A program made the position numbers and the translations under genes. A stretch of 64,000 bases of DNA. Origin: Escherichia coli (GTDB taxonomy: Bacteria > Pseudomonadota > Gammaproteobacteria > Enterobacterales > Enterobacteriaceae). The stretch's first letter is position 1. Each line of letters opens with the position of its first letter. The stretch lies in NCBI RefSeq assembly GCF_009931435.1, contig NZ_CP043414.1. One strand, written 5' to 3'. Of this stretch, positions 33,529 to 51,257 are shown piece by piece. The notes below the pieces were generated by a model. It saw nothing but the letters and a program-made list of their open reading frames with translations, was not told the DNA's origin and ran no database searches.

Positions 33529-35702
<2,174 letters not shown>

Positions 35703-42983: not shown

Positions 42984-43146
42984 GCATTGCCCGATGCTGC
43001 AAAGGCATAAAAAGTCGATGGCGTTGAATATTTTTTCAGCGCCATTTTTATTGATGCGTGGGAAGGAAATCCCTACGCAAACGTTTTCTTTTTCTGTTAG
43101 AATGCGCCCCGAACAGGATGACAGGGCGTAAAATCGTGGGACACAT

Positions 43147-43635
43147 ATGGTCTGGATTGATTACGCCATAATCGCGGTGATTGCTTTTTCCTCTCTGGTT
43201 AGCCTGATCCGCGGCTTTGTTCGTGAAACGTTATCGCTGGTGACATGGGGTTGTGCTTTCTTTGTCGCCAGTCATTACTACACTTACCTGTCAGTCTGGT
43301 TTACGGGCTTTGAAGACGAACTGGTTCGAAATGGGATTGCCATCGCGGTACTGTTTATCGCGACACTGATCGTTGGCGCTATCGTGAACTTCGTGATAGG
43401 TCAGTTGGTTGAGAAAACCCACCTGACGGGCACCGACCGGGTGCTGGGCGTCTGTTTCGGTGCGTTGCGCGGTGTGTTGATTGTTGCTGCCATTCTCTTC
43501 TTTCTCGACTCTTTTACCGGAGTGTCGAAAAGCGAAGACTGGAGCAAATCACAGCTGATCCCGCAGTTCAGTTTTATCATCAGATGGTTTTTTGATTATC
43601 TGCAAAGCTCGTCAAGTTTCTTGCCCAGAGCGTAA
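43147..43635 (+). CDS. cvpA: Colicin V production membrane protein
   Basis: 162-aa membrane ORF preceding purF. Confidence 0.93.
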   Translation: MVWIDYAIIAVIAFSSLVSLIRGFVRETLSLVTWGCAFFVASHYYTYLSVWFTGFEDELVRNGIAIAVLFIATLIVGAIVNFVIGQLVEKTHLTGTDRVLGVCFGALRGVLIVAAILFFLDSFTGVSKSEDWSKSQLIPQFSFIIRWFFDYLQSSSSFLPRA

Positions 43636-43671
43636 GTGCTCTGAGATGTGGCTTAACGAGGAAAAAGACGT

Positions 43672-45189
43672 ATGTGCGGTATTGTCGGTATCGCCGGTGT
43701 TATGCCGGTTAACCAGTCGATTTATGATGCCTTAACGGTGCTTCAGCATCGCGGTCAGGATGCCGCCGGCATCATCACCATTGATGCCAATAACTGCTTC
43801 CGTTTGCGTAAAGCGAACGGGCTGGTGAGCGATGTCTTCGAAGCTCGCCATATGCAGCGTTTGCAGGGCAATATGGGCATTGGTCATGTGCGTTACCCCA
43901 CGGCTGGTAGCTCCAGCGCCTCTGAAGCGCAGCCGTTTTACGTTAACTCCCCGTATGGCATCACGCTTGCCCACAACGGCAATCTGACCAACGCTCACGA
44001 GTTGCGTAAAAAACTGTTTGAAGAAAAACGCCGCCACATCAACACCACTTCCGACTCGGAAATTCTGCTTAATATCTTCGCCAGCGAGCTGGACAACTTC
44101 CGCCACTACCCGCTGGAAGCCGACAACATCTTCGCCGCCATTGCTGCTACAAACCGCTTAATCCGCGGCGCGTATGCCTGTGTGGCGATGATTATCGGCC
44201 ACGGTATGGTGGCTTTCCGCGATCCTAACGGTATTCGTCCGCTGGTACTGGGGAAACGTGATATCGACGACAATCGCACAGAATATATGGTCGCTTCCGA
44301 AAGCGTTGCGCTCGATACCCTGGGCTTTGAGTTCCTGCGTGATGTCGCCCCAGGCGAGGCGATTTACATCACTGAAGAAGGGCAGCTGTTTACCCGTCAG
44401 TGCGCTGACAACCCGGTCAGCAATCCGTGCCTGTTCGAGTATGTTTACTTTGCCCGACCAGACTCGTTCATCGACAAAATTTCCGTTTACAGCGCGCGTG
44501 TGAATATGGGCACCAAGCTGGGCGAGAAAATTGCTCGTGAATGGGAAGATCTGGATATCGACGTGGTGATCCCAATTCCGGAAACCTCTTGTGATATCGC
44601 GCTGGAAATCGCCCGTATTCTGGGCAAACCGTACCGCCAGGGCTTTGTGAAAAACCGCTATGTTGGCCGCACGTTTATCATGCCGGGCCAGCAGCTGCGT
44701 CGTAAGTCCGTGCGCCGTAAACTGAACGCCAACCGCGCTGAATTCCGCGATAAAAACGTCCTGCTGGTCGATGACTCCATCGTGCGTGGTACTACTTCTG
44801 AGCAGATTATCGAGATGGCGCGTGAAGCCGGAGCGAAGAAAGTTTACCTCGCTTCTGCGGCACCGGAAATTCGCTTCCCGAACGTTTACGGGATTGATAT
44901 GCCAAGCGCCACGGAGCTTATCGCCCACGGTCGTGAAGTGGATGAAATTCGCCAGATCATCGGTGCTGATGGTTTGATTTTCCAGGATCTGAATGATCTG
45001 ATCGAAGCCGTCCGTGCGGAAAACCCGGATATCCAGCAGTTTGAATGCTCGGTGTTCAACGGCGTTTACGTCACCAAAGATGTTGATCAGGGCTACCTCG
45101 ATTTCCTTGATACTTTACGTAATGACGACGCTAAAGCCGTGCAACGTCAGAACGAAGTGGAAAATCTCGAAATGCATAACGAAGGATGA
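43672..45189 (+). CDS. purF: Amidophosphoribosyltransferase
   Basis: 505 aa; N-terminal nucleophile MCGIVGI. Confidence 0.97.
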
Positions 45190-45283
45190 TGACTTCGCTC
45201 AGGGTGCCGGTCTGGCACCCTGACTTGCAACTCCCGCCGAAATCCTGCAAAGTCTGGCTGCAAGTCTGACAGGGCAACTATTT

Positions 45284-45853
45284 ATGAAACGACTTATTGT
45301 GGGCATCAGCGGTGCCAGCGGCGCGATTTATGGCGTGCGTTTATTACAGGTTCTGCGTGATGTCGCAGATGTTGAAACGCATCTGGTAATGAGCCAGGCC
45401 GCGCGCCAGACCTTATCCCTTGAAACGGATTTCTCCCTGCGTGATGTGCAGGCATTAGCCGATGTCACGCACGATGCGCGCGATATTGCCGCCAGCATCT
45501 CTTCCGGTTCTTTCCAGACGTTGGGGATGGTGATTTTACCCTGTTCAATCAAAACCCTGTCCGGCATTGTGCATAGCTATACGGATGGCTTACTGACCCG
45601 TGCGGCAGATGTGGTGCTGAAAGAGCGTCGCCCGCTGGTGCTCTGCGTGCGTGAAACACCGTTGCACTTAGGCCACCTGCGTTTAATGACTCAGGCGGCA
45701 GAAATCGGTGCGGTAATTATGCCTCCCGTTCCGGCATTTTATCATCGCCCACAATCCCTTGATGATGTGATAAATCAGACGGTTAACCGTGTTCTTGACC
45801 AGTTTGCGATAAATCTACCCGAAGATCTCTTTGCCCGCTGGCAGGGCGCATAA
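45284..45853 (+). CDS. ubiX: Flavin prenyltransferase UbiX
   Basis: 189 aa flavoprotein fold (GISGASGAIYG). Confidence 0.95.
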   Translation: MKRLIVGISGASGAIYGVRLLQVLRDVADVETHLVMSQAARQTLSLETDFSLRDVQALADVTHDARDIAASISSGSFQTLGMVILPCSIKTLSGIVHSYTDGLLTRAADVVLKERRPLVLCVRETPLHLGHLRLMTQAAEIGAVIMPPVPAFYHRPQSLDDVINQTVNRVLDQFAINLPEDLFARWQGA

Positions 45854-45861
45854 CTCCGCTG

Positions 45862-45884
45862 TTGCCCTGTTTCAGGGCAATTTT
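45862..45884 (+). terminator. Rho-independent terminator after ubiX
   Basis: TTGCCCTG-ttt-CAGGGCAA-TTTT. Confidence 0.65.
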
Positions 45885-46034
45885 GCAACCGCGATCAAAT
45901 CCTCAACATTTTGTTCCTGCCATTCAATCTAAACGCTGCGATCCAACCGCCATACCTGCTATCTTCAACTTCAGGACAATAATGCAACGTCTTATTAACA
46001 TATTTAACGTTGAATGTTACTGTTGTCGTCAAGA

Positions 46035-46050
46035 TGGCATAAGACCTGCA
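46035..46050 (+). promoter_or_regulatory. Putative sigma-54 (-24/-12) promoter for argT
   Basis: TGGCAT-N5-CTGCA about 70 bp upstream of the argT start. Confidence 0.45.
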
Positions 46051-46117
46051 TGAACGAGCCTGCAAACACACAACACAATACACAATATAAAAAAGCCATT
46101 TCACTTGAGGGTTATGT

Positions 46118-46900
46118 ATGAAGAAGTCGATTCTCGCTCTGTCTTTGTTAGTCGGGATTTCCGCAGCAGCTTCCAGCTACGCGGCACTGCCGGAGACGGT
46201 ACGTATCGGAACGGATACCACCTATGCACCGTTCTCATCGAAAGATGCCAAAGGTGACTTTGTTGGCTTTGATATCGATCTCGGTAACGAGATGTGCAAA
46301 CGGATGCAGGTGAAATGTACCTGGGTTGCCAGTGACTTTGACGCGCTGATCCCCTCACTGAAAGCGAAAAAGATCGACGCCATTATTTCGTCGCTCTCCA
46401 TTACGGATAAACGTCAGCAGGAGATTGCCTTCTCCGACAAACTGTACGCCGCAGACTCTCGTCTGATTGCTGCCAAAGGTTCACCGATTCAGCCAACGCT
46501 GGATTCACTGAAAGGTAAACATGTTGGTGTGCTGCAGGGATCAACCCAGGAAGCGTATGCCAATGATAACTGGCGCAGTAAGGGTGTCGATGTGGTGGCC
46601 TATGCTAACCAGGATTTGGTCTATTCCGATCTGGCTGCAGGACGCCTGGATGCCGCTCTGCAAGATGAGGTTGCTGCCAGCGAAGGTTTCCTCAAGCAAC
46701 CTGCCGGTAAAGATTTCGCTTTTGCAGGCCCTTCAGTGAAAGACAAAAAATACTTCGGTGACGGCACCGGTGTCGGGCTACGTAAAGATGATGCTGAACT
46801 GACGGCTGCGTTTAATAAGGCGCTTGGCGAGCTGCGTCAGGACGGCACCTACGACAAGATGGCGAAAAAGTATTTCGACTTTAATGTCTACGGTGACTGA
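46118..46900 (+). CDS. argT: Lysine/arginine/ornithine-binding periplasmic protein
   Basis: 260 aa with signal peptide; paralogous to the adjacent hisJ. Confidence 0.95.
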
Positions 46901-47117
46901 TACGTCGCAGGGAAGCTGTACCTGATGGAATGATCATGGTGCACGCCAGGTTTGTTGCACTATCGTGGTGCATTAAAATGCATACTTAAGCATTTTTAAT
47001 GAAAAATAATACGTCTAACGGGGCGGGATATTTTGCCTTGATGGTCAATTTTATGGCACGATAAGTGTAACAAACCTGTAAATATTCCCTATAAAAAGAC
47101 TGTCAGTTGAGGACATT

Positions 47118-47900
47118 ATGAAAAAACTGGTGCTATCGCTCTCTCTGGTTCTGGCCTTCTCCAGCGCAACGGCGGCGTTTGCTGCGATTCCGCAAAACAT
47201 CCGCATCGGTACCGATCCGACCTATGCGCCATTTGAATCAAAAAATTCACAAGGTGAACTGGTTGGCTTCGACATCGATCTGGCGAAGGAATTGTGCAAA
47301 CGCATCAATACGCAATGTACGTTTGTCGAAAACCCGCTGGATGCGTTAATCCCGTCCTTAAAAGCGAAGAAGATTGACGCCATCATGTCATCGCTTTCCA
47401 TTACGGAAAAACGTCAGCAGGAAATTGCCTTCACCGACAAACTGTACGCTGCCGACTCTCGTCTGGTAGTGGCGAAAAATTCCGACATTCAGCCGACAGT
47501 CGAGTCGCTGAAAGGCAAGCGCGTAGGCGTATTGCAGGGCACCACCCAGGAGACGTTCGGTAACGAACACTGGGCACCAAAAGGCATTGAAATCGTCTCT
47601 TATCAGGGGCAGGACAACATTTATTCTGACCTGACTGCCGGACGTATTGATGCCGCATTCCAGGATGAGGTCGCCGCCAGCGAAGGTTTCCTCAAACAAC
47701 CCGTCGGTAAAGATTACAAATTCGGTGGCCCGTCTGTTAAAGATGAAAAACTGTTTGGCGTAGGTACCGGCATGGGTCTGCGTAAAGAAGATAACGAATT
47801 GCGCGAGGCACTGAACAAAGCCTTTGCCGAAATGCGCGCTGACGGTACTTACGAGAAATTAGCGAAAAAGTACTTCGATTTTGATGTTTATGGTGGTTAA
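47118..47900 (+). CDS. hisJ: Histidine-binding periplasmic protein
   Basis: 260 aa, highly similar to ArgT. Confidence 0.95.
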
Positions 47901-47989
47901 TCGCCATCGGTGAAAGAAAGCCCGCTCCCTTCGGGTAACCGGAGGGAGACAAGAGGCGGTAATTCACCACACACGACAGGACAGGCAGC

Positions 47990-48676
47990 ATGTTGTATGG
48001 GTTTTCAGGTGTTATTTTACAGGGTGCGCTCGTCACGCTGGAGCTGGCGATCAGCTCTGTAGTGCTCGCTGTAATCATCGGTTTAATTGGCGCTGGCGGT
48101 AAGCTCTCGCAAAATCGGTTTTCGGGACTGATTTTTGAAGGGTATACCACGCTGATTCGTGGCGTGCCGGATTTAGTGTTGATGCTGCTGATTTTCTACG
48201 GTTTGCAGATTGCGCTAAACACGGTGACGGAGGCGATGGGCGTCGGGCAGATTGATATCGATCCGATGGTCGCAGGTATTATCACGCTCGGTTTTATCTA
48301 CGGTGCTTACTTCACCGAAACGTTTCGTGGCGCGTTTATGGCAGTGCCAAAAGGACATATAGAGGCGGCAACGGCGTTTGGTTTTACTCGTGGGCAAGTG
48401 TTTCGGCGGATTATGTTTCCGGCGATGATGCGTTACGCCCTGCCAGGCATTGGCAACAACTGGCAGGTGATCCTCAAATCTACCGCCCTGGTTTCGTTAC
48501 TTGGCCTGGAAGATGTGGTCAAAGCCACGCAACTGGCAGGCAAAAGTACCTGGGAACCGTTCTATTTCGCCATCGTCTGTGGCGTGATTTACCTGGTTTT
48601 CACCACCGTTTCCAATGGTGTGCTGCTGTTCCTTGAGCGCCGCTACTCCGTGGGTGTGAAGAGGGCTGACCTGTGA
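47990..48676 (+). CDS. hisQ: Histidine ABC transporter permease
   Basis: 228-aa permease. Confidence 0.95.
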   Translation: MLYGFSGVILQGALVTLELAISSVVLAVIIGLIGAGGKLSQNRFSGLIFEGYTTLIRGVPDLVLMLLIFYGLQIALNTVTEAMGVGQIDIDPMVAGIITLGFIYGAYFTETFRGAFMAVPKGHIEAATAFGFTRGQVFRRIMFPAMMRYALPGIGNNWQVILKSTALVSLLGLEDVVKATQLAGKSTWEPFYFAIVCGVIYLVFTTVSNGVLLFLERRYSVGVKRADL

Positions 48677-49389
48677 TCGAAATCTTACATGAATACTGGA
48701 AACCACTGCTGTGGACCGACGGTTATCGCTTTACTGGCGTGGCGATCACCCTGTGGCTGCTGATTTTGTCGGTAGTGATAGGCGGAGTCCTGGCGCTGTT
48801 TCTGGCGATTGGTCGCGTCTCCAGCAATAAATACATCCAGTTTCCAATCTGGTTATTTACTTATATTTTTCGCGGTACACCGCTGTATGTTCAATTGCTG
48901 GTGTTCTATTCCGGCATGTACACGCTGGAGATTGTTAAGGGTACCGAGTTCCTTAACGCCTTTTTCCGCAGTGGCCTGAATTGTACTGTGCTGGCGCTGA
49001 CGCTTAACACCTGTGCTTACACCACCGAGATTTTTGCCGGAGCAATCCGTTCGGTACCGCACGGAGAAATTGAAGCCGCCAGAGCCTATGGCTTTTCGAC
49101 CTTTAAAATGTATCGCTGCATTATTTTGCCTTCAGCGCTGCGTATTGCGTTACCGGCCTACAGTAATGAAGTAATCCTGATGCTGCACTCTACTGCGCTG
49201 GCGTTTACGGCCACGGTGCCGGATCTGCTGAAAATAGCTCGTGATATTAACGCCGCCACGTATCAACCTTTTACCGCCTTCGGTATCGCCGCGGTGCTCT
49301 ATTTAATCATCTCTTATGTCCTGATCAGTCTGTTCCGCAAAGCGGAAAAACGCTGGTTGCAGCATGTGAAACCTTCTTCAACGCACTGA
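48673..49389 (+). CDS. hisM: Histidine ABC transporter permease
   Basis: 238 aa, overlaps hisQ by 4 bp. Confidence 0.95.
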
Positions 49390-49396
49390 GAATACG

Positions 49397-50170
49397 ATGT
49401 CCGAGAATAAATTAAACGTTATCGATTTGCACAAACGCTACGGCGAACACGAAGTGCTGAAAGGGGTCTCACTGCAAGCGAATGCCGGTGATGTCATAAG
49501 TATCATCGGATCGTCGGGATCGGGGAAAAGTACCTTTCTGCGCTGCATTAACTTCCTCGAAAAACCGAGCGAAGGATCGATCGTCGTTAACGGCCAGACG
49601 ATCAATCTGGTGCGCGATAAAGACGGTCAACTCAAAGTCGCCGATAAAAATCAGCTGCGCTTACTGCGCACACGCCTGACGATGGTATTCCAGCACTTCA
49701 ATCTCTGGAGCCATATGACGGTGCTGGAAAACGTCATGGAAGCGCCGATTCAGGTGTTAGGCCTGAGCAAGCAGGAAGCGCGCGAGCGGGCGGTGAAGTA
49801 TCTGGCGAAAGTCGGGATAGACGAACGTGCGCAGGGGAAATACCCGGTGCATCTGTCCGGTGGTCAGCAACAGCGTGTTTCCATCGCGCGGGCGCTGGCG
49901 ATGGAACCGGAAGTTTTACTGTTTGATGAACCTACCTCGGCGCTCGATCCTGAACTGGTAGGCGAAGTGCTGCGTATTATGCAGCAACTGGCAGAAGAGG
50001 GAAAAACCATGGTGGTGGTGACTCACGAAATGGGCTTTGCTCGCCATGTTTCTACTCACGTCATTTTTCTCCATCAGGGGAAAATAGAGGAAGAAGGCGC
50101 GCCGGAGCAGTTATTTGGCAACCCGAAAAGCCCTCGTCTGCAACAGTTCCTTAAGGGATCGCTGAAATAA
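49397..50170 (+). CDS. hisP: Histidine ABC transporter ATP-binding protein
   Basis: 257 aa; Walker [10 protein letters not shown], signature LSGGQQQR, Walker [12 protein letters not shown]. Confidence 0.96.
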
Positions 50171-50366
50171 CTCCCCCTCCGGTGGCTAACGCTGCCGGAG
50201 TATTTTCAAGGGAAATTTGCGAGTCCGTTTCCGCTGAAATGTAAAAGTTGCAGTCCGCTAAAAATACTTCTGAATTCGCTGTCCAAAGATAAAAACTGCC
50301 TGCTGCATTGGGTGTAAATCGTGGTTATTGTCGCGTCATCTTAAATTTGAGGGGTGACGGAACGCC

Positions 50367-51257
50367 ATGACAATATCGACAACTTCCACGCCGCATGATG
50401 CGGTATTTAAATCTTTTTTACGCCATCCAGACACCGCGCGGGATTTTATTGATATTCATCTTCCCGCGTCGCTGCGCAAACTGTGTGATTTAACGACGCT
50501 CAAACTGGAACCAAACAGTTTTATTGATGAAGATCTGCGGCAATATTATTCCGACCTCTTGTGGTCTGTGAAAACGCAGGAGGGAGCGGGTTATATTTAT
50601 GTGGTGATAGAGCACCAAAGTAAGCCGGAGGAATTAATGGCTTTTCGCATGATGCGCTATTCCATCGCGGCGATGCAAAACCATCTGGATGCAGGCTATA
50701 AAGAGCTTCCATTGGTGATCCCAATGCTGTTTTATCATGGTTGCAGAAGTCCTTATCCTTATTCACTCTGCTGGCTTGATGAATTTGCCGAGCCTGCTAT
50801 AGCCCGCAAAATATATTCATCGGCTTTTCCGCTGGTGGATATTACCGTGGTGCCGGATGACGAGATTATGCAACATCGCAAAATGGCGCTGTTGGAGTTA
50901 ATTCAGAAACATATTCGTCAGCGCGATCTGTTGGGATTAGTCGACCAAATTGTTTCGCTGCTAGTTACAGGGAACACTAATGACAGACAGCTAAAAGCCC
51001 TGTTTAATTACGTATTACAAACGGGAGATGCCCAGCGTTTCCGTGCATTTATTGGTGAGATAGCGGAACGAGCACCACAAGAAAAGGAGAAACTGATGAC
51101 CATTGCTGACAGATTACGTGAAGAAGGCGCAATGCAGGGCAAACACGAAGAAGCTCTGCGTATTGCTCAGGAGATGCTGGAAAAAGGATTTGACCACGAA
51201 GTCATCCTGACGCTGACCCGACTTTCACCAGACGACCTAATCGCGCAAAGCCACTAA
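50367..51257 (+). CDS. rpnB: Recombination-promoting nuclease RpnB (YfcI; Rpn/transposase_31 PD-(D/E)XK family)
   Basis: 296 aa; Rpn family-like N-terminus HDAVFKSFL. Confidence 0.85.

What the first reader, a model, noticed from the sequence alone, without database searches (positions are those of the whole stretch)
46035..46050. Sigma-54-type promoter upstream of argT
TGGCAT-N5-CTGCA matches the -24/-12 architecture (GG-N10-GC), consistent with nitrogen-regulated expression of the periplasmic binding protein gene.
Basis: partly seen in the sequence, partly recalled or inferred. Interest (0 to 1): 0.15.

Follow-up and report, generated by a model that had tools for sequence, protein, structure and literature searches.

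The report
Known sigma-54 promoter of argT

Summary
The window is an E. coli chromosome segment with gene order cvpA-purF-ubiX-argT-hisJQMP. TGGCATAAGACCTGCA sits exactly at 46035-46050 on the argT strand, with GG-N10-GC spacing, and ends 68 nt before the argT ATG.

On sequence alone it is not significant. A weight matrix built from 134 ChIP-bound sigma-54 sites ranks it 5th in the window, and random 64-kb sequence gives about 3.3 equally good hits. Context and comparison settle it:
- It is the only intergenic hit among the top seven.
- Its nine core bases (TGGCA/TGCA) are invariant in 26 diverged enterobacterial argT upstream regions, where only 15% of columns are invariant and the spacer varies freely.
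- The identical 17-mer is published as sigma-54 ChIP-seq site OS22 in E. coli K-12, as a gSELEX RpoN site, and as the sigma-54/NtrC-dependent argT promoter of Salmonella.

The predicted start (about 46061) gives a 57-nt leader that opens with the published GcvB sRNA target.

Three nuances. Unactivated sigma-54 holoenzyme also represses an overlapping sigma-70 start (published). No consensus NtrC site lies upstream of argT in Escherichia. The only strong NtrC site in the locus lies in the argT-hisJ spacer.

Verdict: confirmed, already known, low interest.

The parts
46034..46050 (+). Sigma-54 core promoter, 17-mer ATGGCATAAGACCTGCA. The -24 element is TGGCAT (GG at 46036-46037). The -12 element is CTGCA (GC at 46048-46049).
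   Evidence: Sequence read. PWM score 13.36 bits. TGGCA and TGCA are invariant in 26 orthologous spacers. Identical to K-12 ChIP-seq site OS22.
46061..46061 (+). Predicted sigma-54 transcription start (+1, within about 2 nt).
   Evidence: Inference only. It follows from motif centre 46042 + 19 (the rule used in PMC4591121), which equals 12 nt after the C of the -12 GC. It was not mapped here, and no accessible TSS table covered it.
46061..46117 (+). 57-nt argT leader. Its first 26 nt (46061-46086, TGCAAACACACAACACAATACACAAT) are the C/A-rich target of the sRNA GcvB. The Shine-Dalgarno GAGGG is at 46107-46111.
   Evidence: ViennaRNA duplexfold of the leader against K-12 gcvB pairs 46061-46086 contiguously with the R1 region, z = -6.1 against 500 shuffled leaders. 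GcvB-argT is a verified R1-seed interaction that binds upstream of the RBS (PMC9299463, PMC2639303). ACAACAC is conserved across genera.
46118..46900 (+). argT coding sequence (lysine/arginine/ornithine periplasmic binding protein).
   Evidence: ORF. RefSeq annotation of the 100%-identical strain.
46015..46023 (+). Candidate extended -10 (TGtTACTGT) of the sigma-70 start that the sigma-54 closed complex represses. The sigma-70 +1 would be near 46029.
   Evidence: PMC4551910 Table S3 places the sigma-54 motif at +6 to +22 of a sigma-70 start, and expression with rpoN is 23% of vector. Assigning this hexamer is my inference. It is identical in K-12 but not conserved outside Escherichia.
45992..46008 (+). 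Conserved A/T-rich block TTATTAACATATTTAAC at about -69 to -53, between any upstream activator site and the core promoter.
   Evidence: Conserved in most genera, with TAA at 45996-45998 invariant. Its function (an IHF or intrinsic-bend site, as at other NtrC promoters) is inferred from position only and was not tested.
45956..45965 (+). Invariant block CTGcTATCTT at about -105 to -96. It reads as an extended -10 (TGnTATCTT) and its function is unknown.
   Evidence: Invariant in 26 of 26 sequences except the single n position, which is C or A. It is not on the RpoD gSELEX constitutive-promoter list, where only hisJ is listed for this locus.
45864..45878 (+). ubiX terminator-like hairpin GCCCTG-TTT-CAGGGC followed by AATTTTG. 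It would insulate argT from cvpA-purF-ubiX transcription.
   Evidence: Sequence. The hairpin is kept in other genera through paired changes, such as GCCCCGTTTCGGGGC and GCCTCAnnATGGGGC. An earlier count gave wrong coordinates for it; these are the corrected ones.
46956..46972 (+). Strong NtrC dyad TGCACTATCGTGGTGCA in the argT-hisJ spacer, with a weaker half-site ending in GGTGCA at 46943. It is the only strong NtrC site in the locus.
   Evidence: It is the only match with 1 mismatch or fewer to TGCACCANNNTGGTGCA in the 64 kb. It lies under the 23.7-fold NtrC ChIP-seq peak assigned to hisJQMP (PMC4066584). Tandem dyads are conserved at this position across genera.
47053..47069 (+). Sigma-54-like motif ATGGCACGATAAGTGTA, ending 49 nt before the hisJ ATG, with GT in place of the -12 GC.
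   Evidence: 10.9 bits, 7th percentile of bound sites. The orthologous site is canonical (15.8-18.0 bits) in Citrobacter, Kluyvera, Pseudocitrobacter and Buttiauxella. hisJ is absent from the sigma-54 ChIP tables.

Best explanation
46034-50 is the sigma-54 (RpoN) promoter of argT, called argTp in E. coli and, from my recollection, argTr in Salmonella.

Proposed mechanism:
1. RNA polymerase-sigma54 holoenzyme recognises TGGCAT at -24 and CTGCA at -12 and sits there as a stable closed complex in all conditions.
2. When glutamine is low, NtrB phosphorylates NtrC. The NtrC~P oligomer contacts the closed complex by DNA looping and uses ATP hydrolysis to open it.
3. Transcription starts at about 46061.
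4. The 57-nt leader begins with a C/A-rich tract that the Hfq-dependent sRNA GcvB pairs with. This represses ArgT synthesis when amino acids are plentiful.
5. While unactivated, the same closed complex lies at +6 to +22 of a weak sigma-70 start and lowers that basal transcription.

Shown here:
- the motif, its geometry and its position;
- its rank among window positions;
- its deep conservation;
- its identity to the K-12 sequence;
- the GcvB complementarity.

Taken from the literature on the identical sequence:
- sigma-54 binding in vivo and in vitro;
- rpoN and NtrC dependence;
- repression of sigma-70 transcription;
- GcvB regulation.

Inferred:
- the exact start site;
- where NtrC binds to activate this promoter in Escherichia.
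For: - Geometry: exact motif with GG-N10-GC spacing, on the argT strand.
- Context: best intergenic PWM hit in the window.
- Conservation: every enterobacterial argT ortholog recovered through a coding-sequence pattern has its best sigma-54 hit (13.2-18.3 bits) ending 56-75 nt before the ATG. The search pattern did not include the promoter.
- Selective constraint: TGGCA....A..TGCA is invariant while the spacer varies (AAGACC, AAAAGC, CAGAAGA, GGGAAC, GAAAAC). Only 15% of spacer columns are invariant, so a naive probability for nine named columns all being invariant is 4e-8.
- Transferability: the window is identical to K-12 across the promoter.
- In vivo binding: K-12 sigma-54 ChIP-seq site OS22, fold-above-threshold 12. 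The same paper's supplement has a cross-species score table for OS22.
- In vitro binding: gSELEX RpoN holoenzyme peak at the argT/ubiX spacer.
- Salmonella: ChIP-chip site and rpoN-dependent expression.
- NtrC: ChIP-seq signal over the promoter in nitrogen-starved cells.
- Direct statement of sigma-54/NtrC control.
- Leader: GcvB pairing with a published verified interaction.
- Repression of sigma-70 transcription by sigma-54.
Against: - The sequence match alone is no better than chance.
- EcoCyc listed the E. coli promoter only as predicted, not experimentally confirmed, at the time of PMC4591121.
- No site within 4 mismatches of the NtrC consensus lies in the 300 bp upstream of argT in Escherichia, Salmonella or most Citrobacter.
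- The NtrC ChIP-seq peak at argT was the weakest reported (5.4-fold) and was added by eye.
- In nitrogen-replete cells, deleting rpoN raises argT expression rather than lowering it.
- The strong argTp-gfp reporter of PMC7045595 used window 45863-46060, by my alignment of the primer sequences to the sequence. That fragment also contains both sigma-70-type -10 candidates, and the passages I read report no rpoN or ntrC mutant test.
- I could not find a mapped 5' end.
Confidence: 0.93

Rival explanations
1. The site is mainly a repressive parking place for sigma-54 holoenzyme. Productive argT transcription would come from sigma-70/sigma-S promoters upstream (TGtTACTGT at 46015-23 and/or CTGcTATCTT at 45956-65), and the closed complex would act as an operator-like block.
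For: - Expression with rpoN is 23% of that without it, and the motif lies at +6 to +22 of a sigma-70 start. Sigma-54 lowers sigma-70 abortive transcription in vitro by 10-60%.
- There is no consensus NtrC site upstream of argT in Escherichia, and the NtrC ChIP signal is weak.
- An invariant block resembling an extended -10 lies 100 bp upstream.
- The reporter increases in stationary phase.
Against: - Salmonella argT is up 3.5-fold in WT versus delta-rpoN when a promiscuous activator is supplied.
- argT is listed as NtrC-dependent by gene-expression analysis and as sigma-54/NtrC-activated.
- More distant genera keep or improve the promoter (up to 18.3 bits), and some keep a near-consensus NtrC dyad upstream. 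That is what a productive promoter would show.
- TGtTACTGT is not conserved outside Escherichia.
- Repression and activation are not exclusive. This is best seen as an added role.
Confidence: 0.05
2. It is a chance GG-N10-GC match with no function.
For: About 3.3 equally good PWM hits are expected per random 64 kb. Four better-scoring hits exist inside ORFs in this window.
Against: - In vivo and in vitro sigma-54 binding to the identical sequence.
- Invariance of all nine core bases across genera whose spacers are only 47-60% identical.
- Fixed position relative to the ATG.
Confidence: 0.01
3. It is a genuine sigma-54 promoter, but in Escherichia it is activated from somewhere other than a local upstream NtrC site. 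The candidates are the strong NtrC dyads about 0.9 kb downstream in the argT-hisJ spacer, or NtrC~P acting from weak sites or from solution at high concentration.
For: - No consensus NtrC site within 300 bp upstream.
- The far-upstream dyad kept in Pseudocitrobacter, Buttiauxella and Kluyvera aligns in E. coli with TGCCCGCTGGCAGGGCGCA, inside the ubiX 3' end, with spacing 2 bp too long.
- The only strong dyad is at 46956-72, under a 23.7-fold ChIP peak.
- The hisJ core next to it has lost its -12 GC in Escherichia and is not in the sigma-54 ChIP tables.
- From general knowledge, NtrC enhancers can work at kilobase distances and from either side. I did not verify this here.
Against: - The plasmid argTp fragment (window 45863-46060) lacks those dyads and is still highly active, although the cause of that activity was not dissected.
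- The hisJ motif still resembles functional GT-type -12 promoters such as pspA and pspG, so the dyads may simply serve hisJ.
- There is no direct test.
Confidence: 0.12

Closest known systems
E. coli K-12 argTp (sigma-54 ChIP-seq site OS22) and Salmonella Typhimurium argT promoter (STM2355)
   Same: The 17-mer is identical, as is the region from about -109 to -7 of the predicted start in K-12. The downstream gene, the distance to the ATG (57 vs 58 nt) and the leader are the same.
   Different: Across the 291-bp comparison there are a few single-base differences from K-12 and a 1-nt shorter leader. None falls in the -24/-12 elements.
glnAp2, the archetypal NtrC/sigma-54 promoter
   Same: The same -24/-12 class (TTGGCACAGATTTCGCT) and the same activator and signal.
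   Different: From general knowledge, glnAp2 has tandem high-affinity NtrC dyads about 100-140 bp upstream. argTp in Escherichia has none recognisable within 300 bp, and its NtrC ChIP signal is 5.4-fold against 71-fold at glnA.
hisJ (dhuA) control region, 1 kb downstream in the same locus
   Same: A paralogous binding-protein gene with a sigma-54-type core at the same distance from its ATG. It has tandem NtrC dyads centred about -116 from the start predicted for that core, derived from the coordinates.
   Different: In Escherichia the -12 GC is GT (10.9 bits), and hisJ appears in no sigma-54 ChIP table. hisJQMP is reported as sigma-70-transcribed and ArgR-repressed. argTp has the opposite make-up: a good core and no consensus dyad.
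Sigma-54 sites that repress overlapping sigma-70 promoters (classes I/II of PMC4551910: argT, chaC, mdfA, patA)
   Same: argT is itself one of the four cases tested in vitro. The -12 C is present, as in all repressive sites.
   Different: None; it is a listed member.

Membership tests
Sigma-54 (-24/-12) promoter | GG and GC dinucleotides exactly 10 bp apart within TGGCAC-N5-TTGCW-like elements | tested here: met
   TGGCAT-AAGAC-CTGCA, with GG at 46036-37 and GC at 46048-49. 13.36 bits on a matrix of 134 bound sites, 32nd percentile.
Sigma-54 (-24/-12) promoter | Intergenic, in sense orientation, at a plausible distance upstream of a gene | tested here: met
   The motif ends 68 nt before the argT ATG on the same strand. 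It is the only one of the top seven PWM hits outside an ORF.
Sigma-54 (-24/-12) promoter | Core elements under purifying selection in orthologous control regions | tested here: met
   TGGCA and TGCA are invariant in 26 of 26 regions. The spacer is variable, and 15% of spacer columns are invariant.
Sigma-54 (-24/-12) promoter | Bound by RNAP-sigma54 holoenzyme | not testable with these tools
   Published for the identical sequence: ChIP-seq OS22, gSELEX, Salmonella ChIP-chip.
Sigma-54 (-24/-12) promoter | rpoN-dependent transcript starting about 12 nt after the -12 GC | not testable with these tools
   rpoN dependence is published for Salmonella and stated for E. coli. No mapped 5' end was found in the accessible supplements.
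NtrC (Ntr) regulon promoter | NtrC dyad(s) TGCACC-N5-GGTGCA within a few hundred bp upstream | tested here: not met
   No site within 4 mismatches in the 300 bp upstream of argT in the window, other Escherichia, Salmonella or most Citrobacter. Sites with 1-2 mismatches are present at about -290 from the ATG in Pseudocitrobacter, Buttiauxella and one Kluyvera. The nearest strong dyad is downstream at 46956-72.
NtrC (Ntr) regulon promoter | NtrC occupancy and NtrC-dependent induction under nitrogen limitation | not testable with these tools
   Published: a 5.4-fold ChIP-seq peak over the promoter, added by visual inspection, with gene-expression evidence cited. Also stated.
Sigma-70 promoter (rival) | -35/-10 hexamers with 16-18 bp spacing | tested here: not met
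   The consensus scan finds no + strand site in 45700-47300. There are only extended -10-like candidates without a -35 (TGtTACTGT, CTGcTATCTT). A sigma-70 start is nevertheless reported at about 46029.
GcvB R1-seed target (leader) | C/A-rich tract complementary to the G/U-rich R1 region of GcvB | tested here: met
   Leader 46061-46086 pairs contiguously with GcvB R1, z = -6.1. The interaction is verified in Salmonella and classed as conserved in E. coli.

The most novel reading that the evidence does not exclude
In the Escherichia lineage the two paralogous promoters have drifted into complementary halves:
- argTp keeps a good sigma-54 core but has no consensus NtrC site of its own.
- The hisJ control region keeps strong, in vivo-occupied NtrC dyads, but its sigma-54 core has lost the -12 GC.

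The dyads about 0.9 kb downstream could therefore now act as a shared or re-assigned remote enhancer for argTp.

Separately, the invariant CTGnTATCTT 100 bp upstream may be an unreported, deeply conserved extended -10 promoter. Its transcripts would have to pass the sigma-54 closed complex, which would make the -24/-12 site both a promoter and an operator.
Probability: 0.12. Interest if true: 0.35.

Novelty: already known. Interest (0 to 1): 0.07.

Why it matters
It matters little as a discovery. argTp is a catalogued member of the E. coli and Salmonella sigma-54/NtrC regulon and is already used as a synthetic-biology part.

The case is useful as a calibration. A correct call was made from a motif that is not statistically significant on its own. 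What settles it is context, deep conservation of exactly the contact bases, and published binding data.

The side observations could interest people who study how enhancer-dependent promoters evolve, but they are untested:
- the missing local NtrC site at argT;
- the decayed hisJ core next to retained NtrC dyads;
- the invariant block resembling an extended -10.

Tried and rejected
- Consensus-with-mismatch search (TGGCACGNNNNTTGCW, up to 3 mismatches) gave 101 hits against 122 expected, so it was useless as a discriminator.
- The sigma-70 consensus scan found no + strand promoter in the spacer.
- I looked for a mapped argT 5' end in three transcriptome papers. The Cappable-seq supplement (PMC4782308) had no coordinates in range. 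In PMC4681348 the only 'argT' match in the supplement was a tRNA name (ArgTCT), not the gene. PMC4161252 has no supplement held.
- I could not open Reitzer & Schneider 2001 (the id I recalled was PMC99035) or Ames & Nikaido 1985 (the id I recalled was PMC554219). What I recall of them and of Schmitz et al. 1988 is therefore not used as evidence.
- Searching for dhuA/argTr found nothing relevant.
- An Rfam scan of 43000-51000 at E <= 1 found nothing.
- ArgR control of argT was considered, because the block at 45992-46008 is A/T-rich. I rejected it as a claim because the literature says argT is apparently not ArgR-regulated.
- I considered inverted-repeat readings of the CTGnTATCTT block, such as GCTATC...GATAGC in the Cedecea group. 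I dropped them because the partner arm is not conserved.
- The full-length GcvB/leader duplex energy from duplexfold (-60.5) is inflated because it ignores intramolecular structure. Only the contiguous 5' pairing and the shuffle comparison are used.
- The argTp-gfp strength reported in PMC7045595 is not counted as evidence for sigma-54. The fragment also holds sigma-70-type elements, and the passages I read report no mutant control.

Full report
**What is there.** The window is an E. coli chromosome segment.
- The 264-bp ubiX-argT spacer is 100% identical to strain R32_14_1F and is present in 5,425 of 5,426 complete E. coli genomes.
- All genes lie on the + strand: cvpA 43147-43635, purF 43672-45189, ubiX 45284-45853, argT 46118-46900, hisJ 47118-47900, hisQ, hisM, hisP.
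GG is at 46036-37 and GC at 46048-49, with ten bases between them. The motif ends 68 nt before the argT ATG.

**Is it more than chance?** On sequence alone it is not.
- The degenerate pattern is expected 0.54 times per window, and 38 of 100 shuffles contain one.
- The looser consensus with three mismatches is, if anything, under-represented.
- I built a log-odds matrix from the 134 other sigma-54 ChIP-seq 17-mers of Bonocora et al. (PMC4591121), leaving out the argT site itself.
- The site scores 13.36 bits. That is rank 5 of 127,968 window positions and the 32nd percentile of genuine sites. Random 64-kb sequences contain on average 3.3 sites as good.
- Context separates it from the others. 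The six other hits in the top seven all lie inside ORFs of 189 aa or more, and the argT site is the only intergenic one.

**Independent comparative test.**
- I fetched argT loci from the species-representative genome collection using a degenerate pattern for the ArgT peptide GTDTTYAPF. The promoter therefore played no part in the selection.
- Every enterobacterial ortholog (ArgT identity 77-99%) has its best sigma-54 hit, 13.2-18.3 bits, ending 56-75 nt before the ATG. The genera are Escherichia, Salmonella, Citrobacter, Kluyvera, Pseudocitrobacter, Buttiauxella, Cedecea and an isolate labelled Klebsiella sp. BIGb0407.
- In an alignment of 26 non-redundant upstream regions the pattern TGGCA....A..TGCA is invariant, while the intervening bases differ (AAGACC, AAAAGC, CAGAAGA, GGGAAC, GAAAAC).
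- Only 40 of 264 spacer columns are invariant, and identity to the window falls to 47-60% in the distant genera.
- This is selection on exactly the bases that sigma-54 contacts. Bonocora et al. already hold a cross-species score table for this site, so the conservation is not new either.

**What the literature says about the identical sequence.** The window matches K-12 MG1655 without a difference from 45952 to 46054, and all elements discussed here are exact matches in K-12.
- The 17-mer ATGGCATAAGACCTGCA is sigma-54 ChIP-seq site OS22. Its fold-above-threshold score is 12 and its predicted start is 58 nt before argT. At that time it was flagged as predicted rather than confirmed in EcoCyc. 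It is the only high-stringency site in the K-12 interval that corresponds to this window.
- RpoN holoenzyme binds the argT/ubiX spacer in genomic SELEX, with and without NtrC (PMC8743547).
- In Salmonella, TGGCATAAGACCTGCATG is a ChIP-chip site. argT is listed among four operons experimentally shown to be sigma-54-dependent, with NtrC as activator and 3.5-fold higher expression in wild type than in delta-rpoN (PMC3844500).
[quoted passage not shown] It says hisJQMP uses a sigma-70 promoter repressed by ArgR.
- NtrC ChIP-seq in nitrogen-starved cells shows a peak over the promoter (PMC4066584).

**How it most likely works.**
- Holoenzyme binds -24/-12 as a closed complex.
- NtrC~P opens it when nitrogen is limiting.
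- Transcription starts near 46061. That is the motif centre plus 19, which equals 12 nt after the C of the GC.
- The 57-nt leader begins with TGCAAACACACAACACAATACACAAT (46061-46086). This tract pairs contiguously with the R1 region of GcvB taken from the K-12 record, at z = -6.1 against shuffled leaders.
[quoted passage not shown] The Shine-Dalgarno GAGGG is at 46107-46111.
- Upstream, a hairpin after ubiX (GCCCTG-TTT-CAGGGC, 45864-45878) is maintained in other genera through paired substitutions. That is consistent with argT needing its own promoter.

**Nuances that bear on the mechanism.**
1. Schaefer et al. (PMC4551910) list argT among sigma-70 promoters repressed by sigma-54. The motif lies at +6 to +22 of a sigma-70 start, expression with rpoN is 23% of that without it, and sigma-54 lowers sigma-70 initiation in vitro.
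   - That start would be near 46029. TGtTACTGT at 46015-23 is a plausible extended -10, but it is not conserved outside Escherichia.
   - The site is thus both a promoter and, when unactivated, a brake.
2. I could not find the enhancer.
   - No 17-mer within four mismatches of TGCACCANNNTGGTGCA lies in the 300 bp upstream of argT in Escherichia, Salmonella or most Citrobacter.
   - Pseudocitrobacter, Buttiauxella and one Kluyvera keep a dyad with 1-2 mismatches at about -290 from the ATG.
   - In E. coli that position falls inside the ubiX 3' end and reads TGCCCGCTGGCAGGGCGCA, with the half-sites 2 bp too far apart.
   - In line with this, the NtrC ChIP peak at argT was the weakest in the study (5.4-fold) and was added by eye.
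3. The fragment used as argTp in PMC7045595 is bounded by its primers to window 45863-46060. It contains both sigma-70-type candidates, and I found no mutant test of it, so its high activity is not clean evidence for sigma-54.

**The neighbouring hisJ control region (side finding).**
- The only match with 1 mismatch or fewer to the NtrC consensus in the whole window is TGCACTATCGTGGTGCA at 46956-72, in the argT-hisJ spacer. It lies under the 23.7-fold NtrC peak assigned to hisJQMP.
- About 85 bp downstream is ATGGCACGATAAGTGTA (47053-69), which scores 10.9 bits.
- In Citrobacter, Kluyvera, Pseudocitrobacter and Buttiauxella the orthologous site is a canonical TGGCACGATAACTGC[A/T] or TGGCATGAAACATGCA at 15.8-18.0 bits, with tandem NtrC dyads upstream.
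- In Escherichia the -12 GC has become GT, and in Salmonella the element reads CCGCA at 11.3 bits.
- hisJ appears in none of the sigma-54 ChIP tables.
- The two paralogous promoters therefore look complementary in Escherichia. Whether the retained dyads serve hisJ, argTp from a distance, or both is untested.

**Unexplained.** CTGcTATCTT (45956-65, about -105 to -96) is invariant in all 26 sequences except at the one position that would be the free base of an extended -10, TGnTATCTT. A start there (about 45972) would give a 146-nt leader that runs through the sigma-54 site. RpoD gSELEX lists hisJ but not argT for this locus, and I found no TSS data, so this remains a candidate only.

**Verdict.** The feature is the known argT sigma-54/NtrC promoter. 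Novelty: already known. Interest is low.

Noticed in passing
window 47053-47069 (+), with NtrC dyads at 46927-46943 and 46956-46972: The hisJ upstream region carries a sigma-54-like core, ATGGCACGATAAGTGTA, whose -12 GC is GT in Escherichia (10.9 bits). The orthologous core is canonical (15.8-18.0 bits) in Citrobacter, Kluyvera, Pseudocitrobacter and Buttiauxella. The tandem NtrC dyads upstream are retained, and the strong one lies under a 23.7-fold NtrC ChIP-seq peak in K-12. hisJ is in no sigma-54 ChIP table.
   Followed up: partly
window 45956-45965 (+): CTGcTATCTT is invariant in 26 of 26 enterobacterial argT upstream regions except at the single n position of TGnTATCTT. This is the signature of an extended -10. 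It lies about 100 bp upstream of the sigma-54 start. I found no published promoter or TSS for it.
   Followed up: partly
window 2010-2026 and 2074-2090 (+): Two of the best sigma-54 matrix hits in the window (ATGGCACGAAATTTTCA at 14.0 bits, TTGGCGCGTTCTTTGCT at 14.9 bits) lie 64 bp apart in sense orientation. Both are inside an accessory oligosaccharide MFS transporter gene (ORF 1608-2855) that is present in about half of complete E. coli genomes (2,646 of 5,426). They may be intragenic sigma-54 sites of the kind Bonocora et al. describe, but they are absent from K-12 data.
   Followed up: partly
window 35440-35456 (-), 15372-15388 (+): Further intragenic sigma-54 matrix hits: CTGGCGCAACGTTTGCT at 14.5 bits in ORF 34707-35702, and AGGGCATAAATCATGCA at 13.4 bits in ORF 14297-16489. 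Neither corresponds to a high-stringency K-12 ChIP-seq site.
   Followed up: no
window 45864-45878 (+): The ubiX terminator-like hairpin GCCCTG-TTT-CAGGGC plus AATTTTG is kept in other genera by paired (compensatory) changes, such as GCCCCG...CGGGGC. The simple terminator scan did not report it because the T-run is short.
   Followed up: partly
window 45832-45850 (+), inside the ubiX 3' end: In E. coli the last codons of ubiX overlie the position where several other genera have a near-consensus NtrC dyad just after their ubiX stop. The E. coli sequence TGCCCGCTGGCAGGGCGCA keeps the outer bases, but the half-sites are 2 bp too far apart.
   Followed up: partly
window 46973-46978 and 46995-47000 (+): The RpoD gSELEX paper gives TTGAAA-16-TTTAAT as the hisJ sigma-70 promoter in K-12. 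In this window the -35 reads TTAAAA (G to A), so this strain's hisJ -35 is one step further from consensus. The argT-hisJ spacer is not identical to K-12.
   Followed up: no
window 46969-46982 (+): A perfect small palindrome, TGCATTAAAATGCA, abuts the strong NtrC dyad, and TGCATA is conserved in most genera. It may be part of the ArgR/NtrC operator region of hisJ.
   Followed up: no
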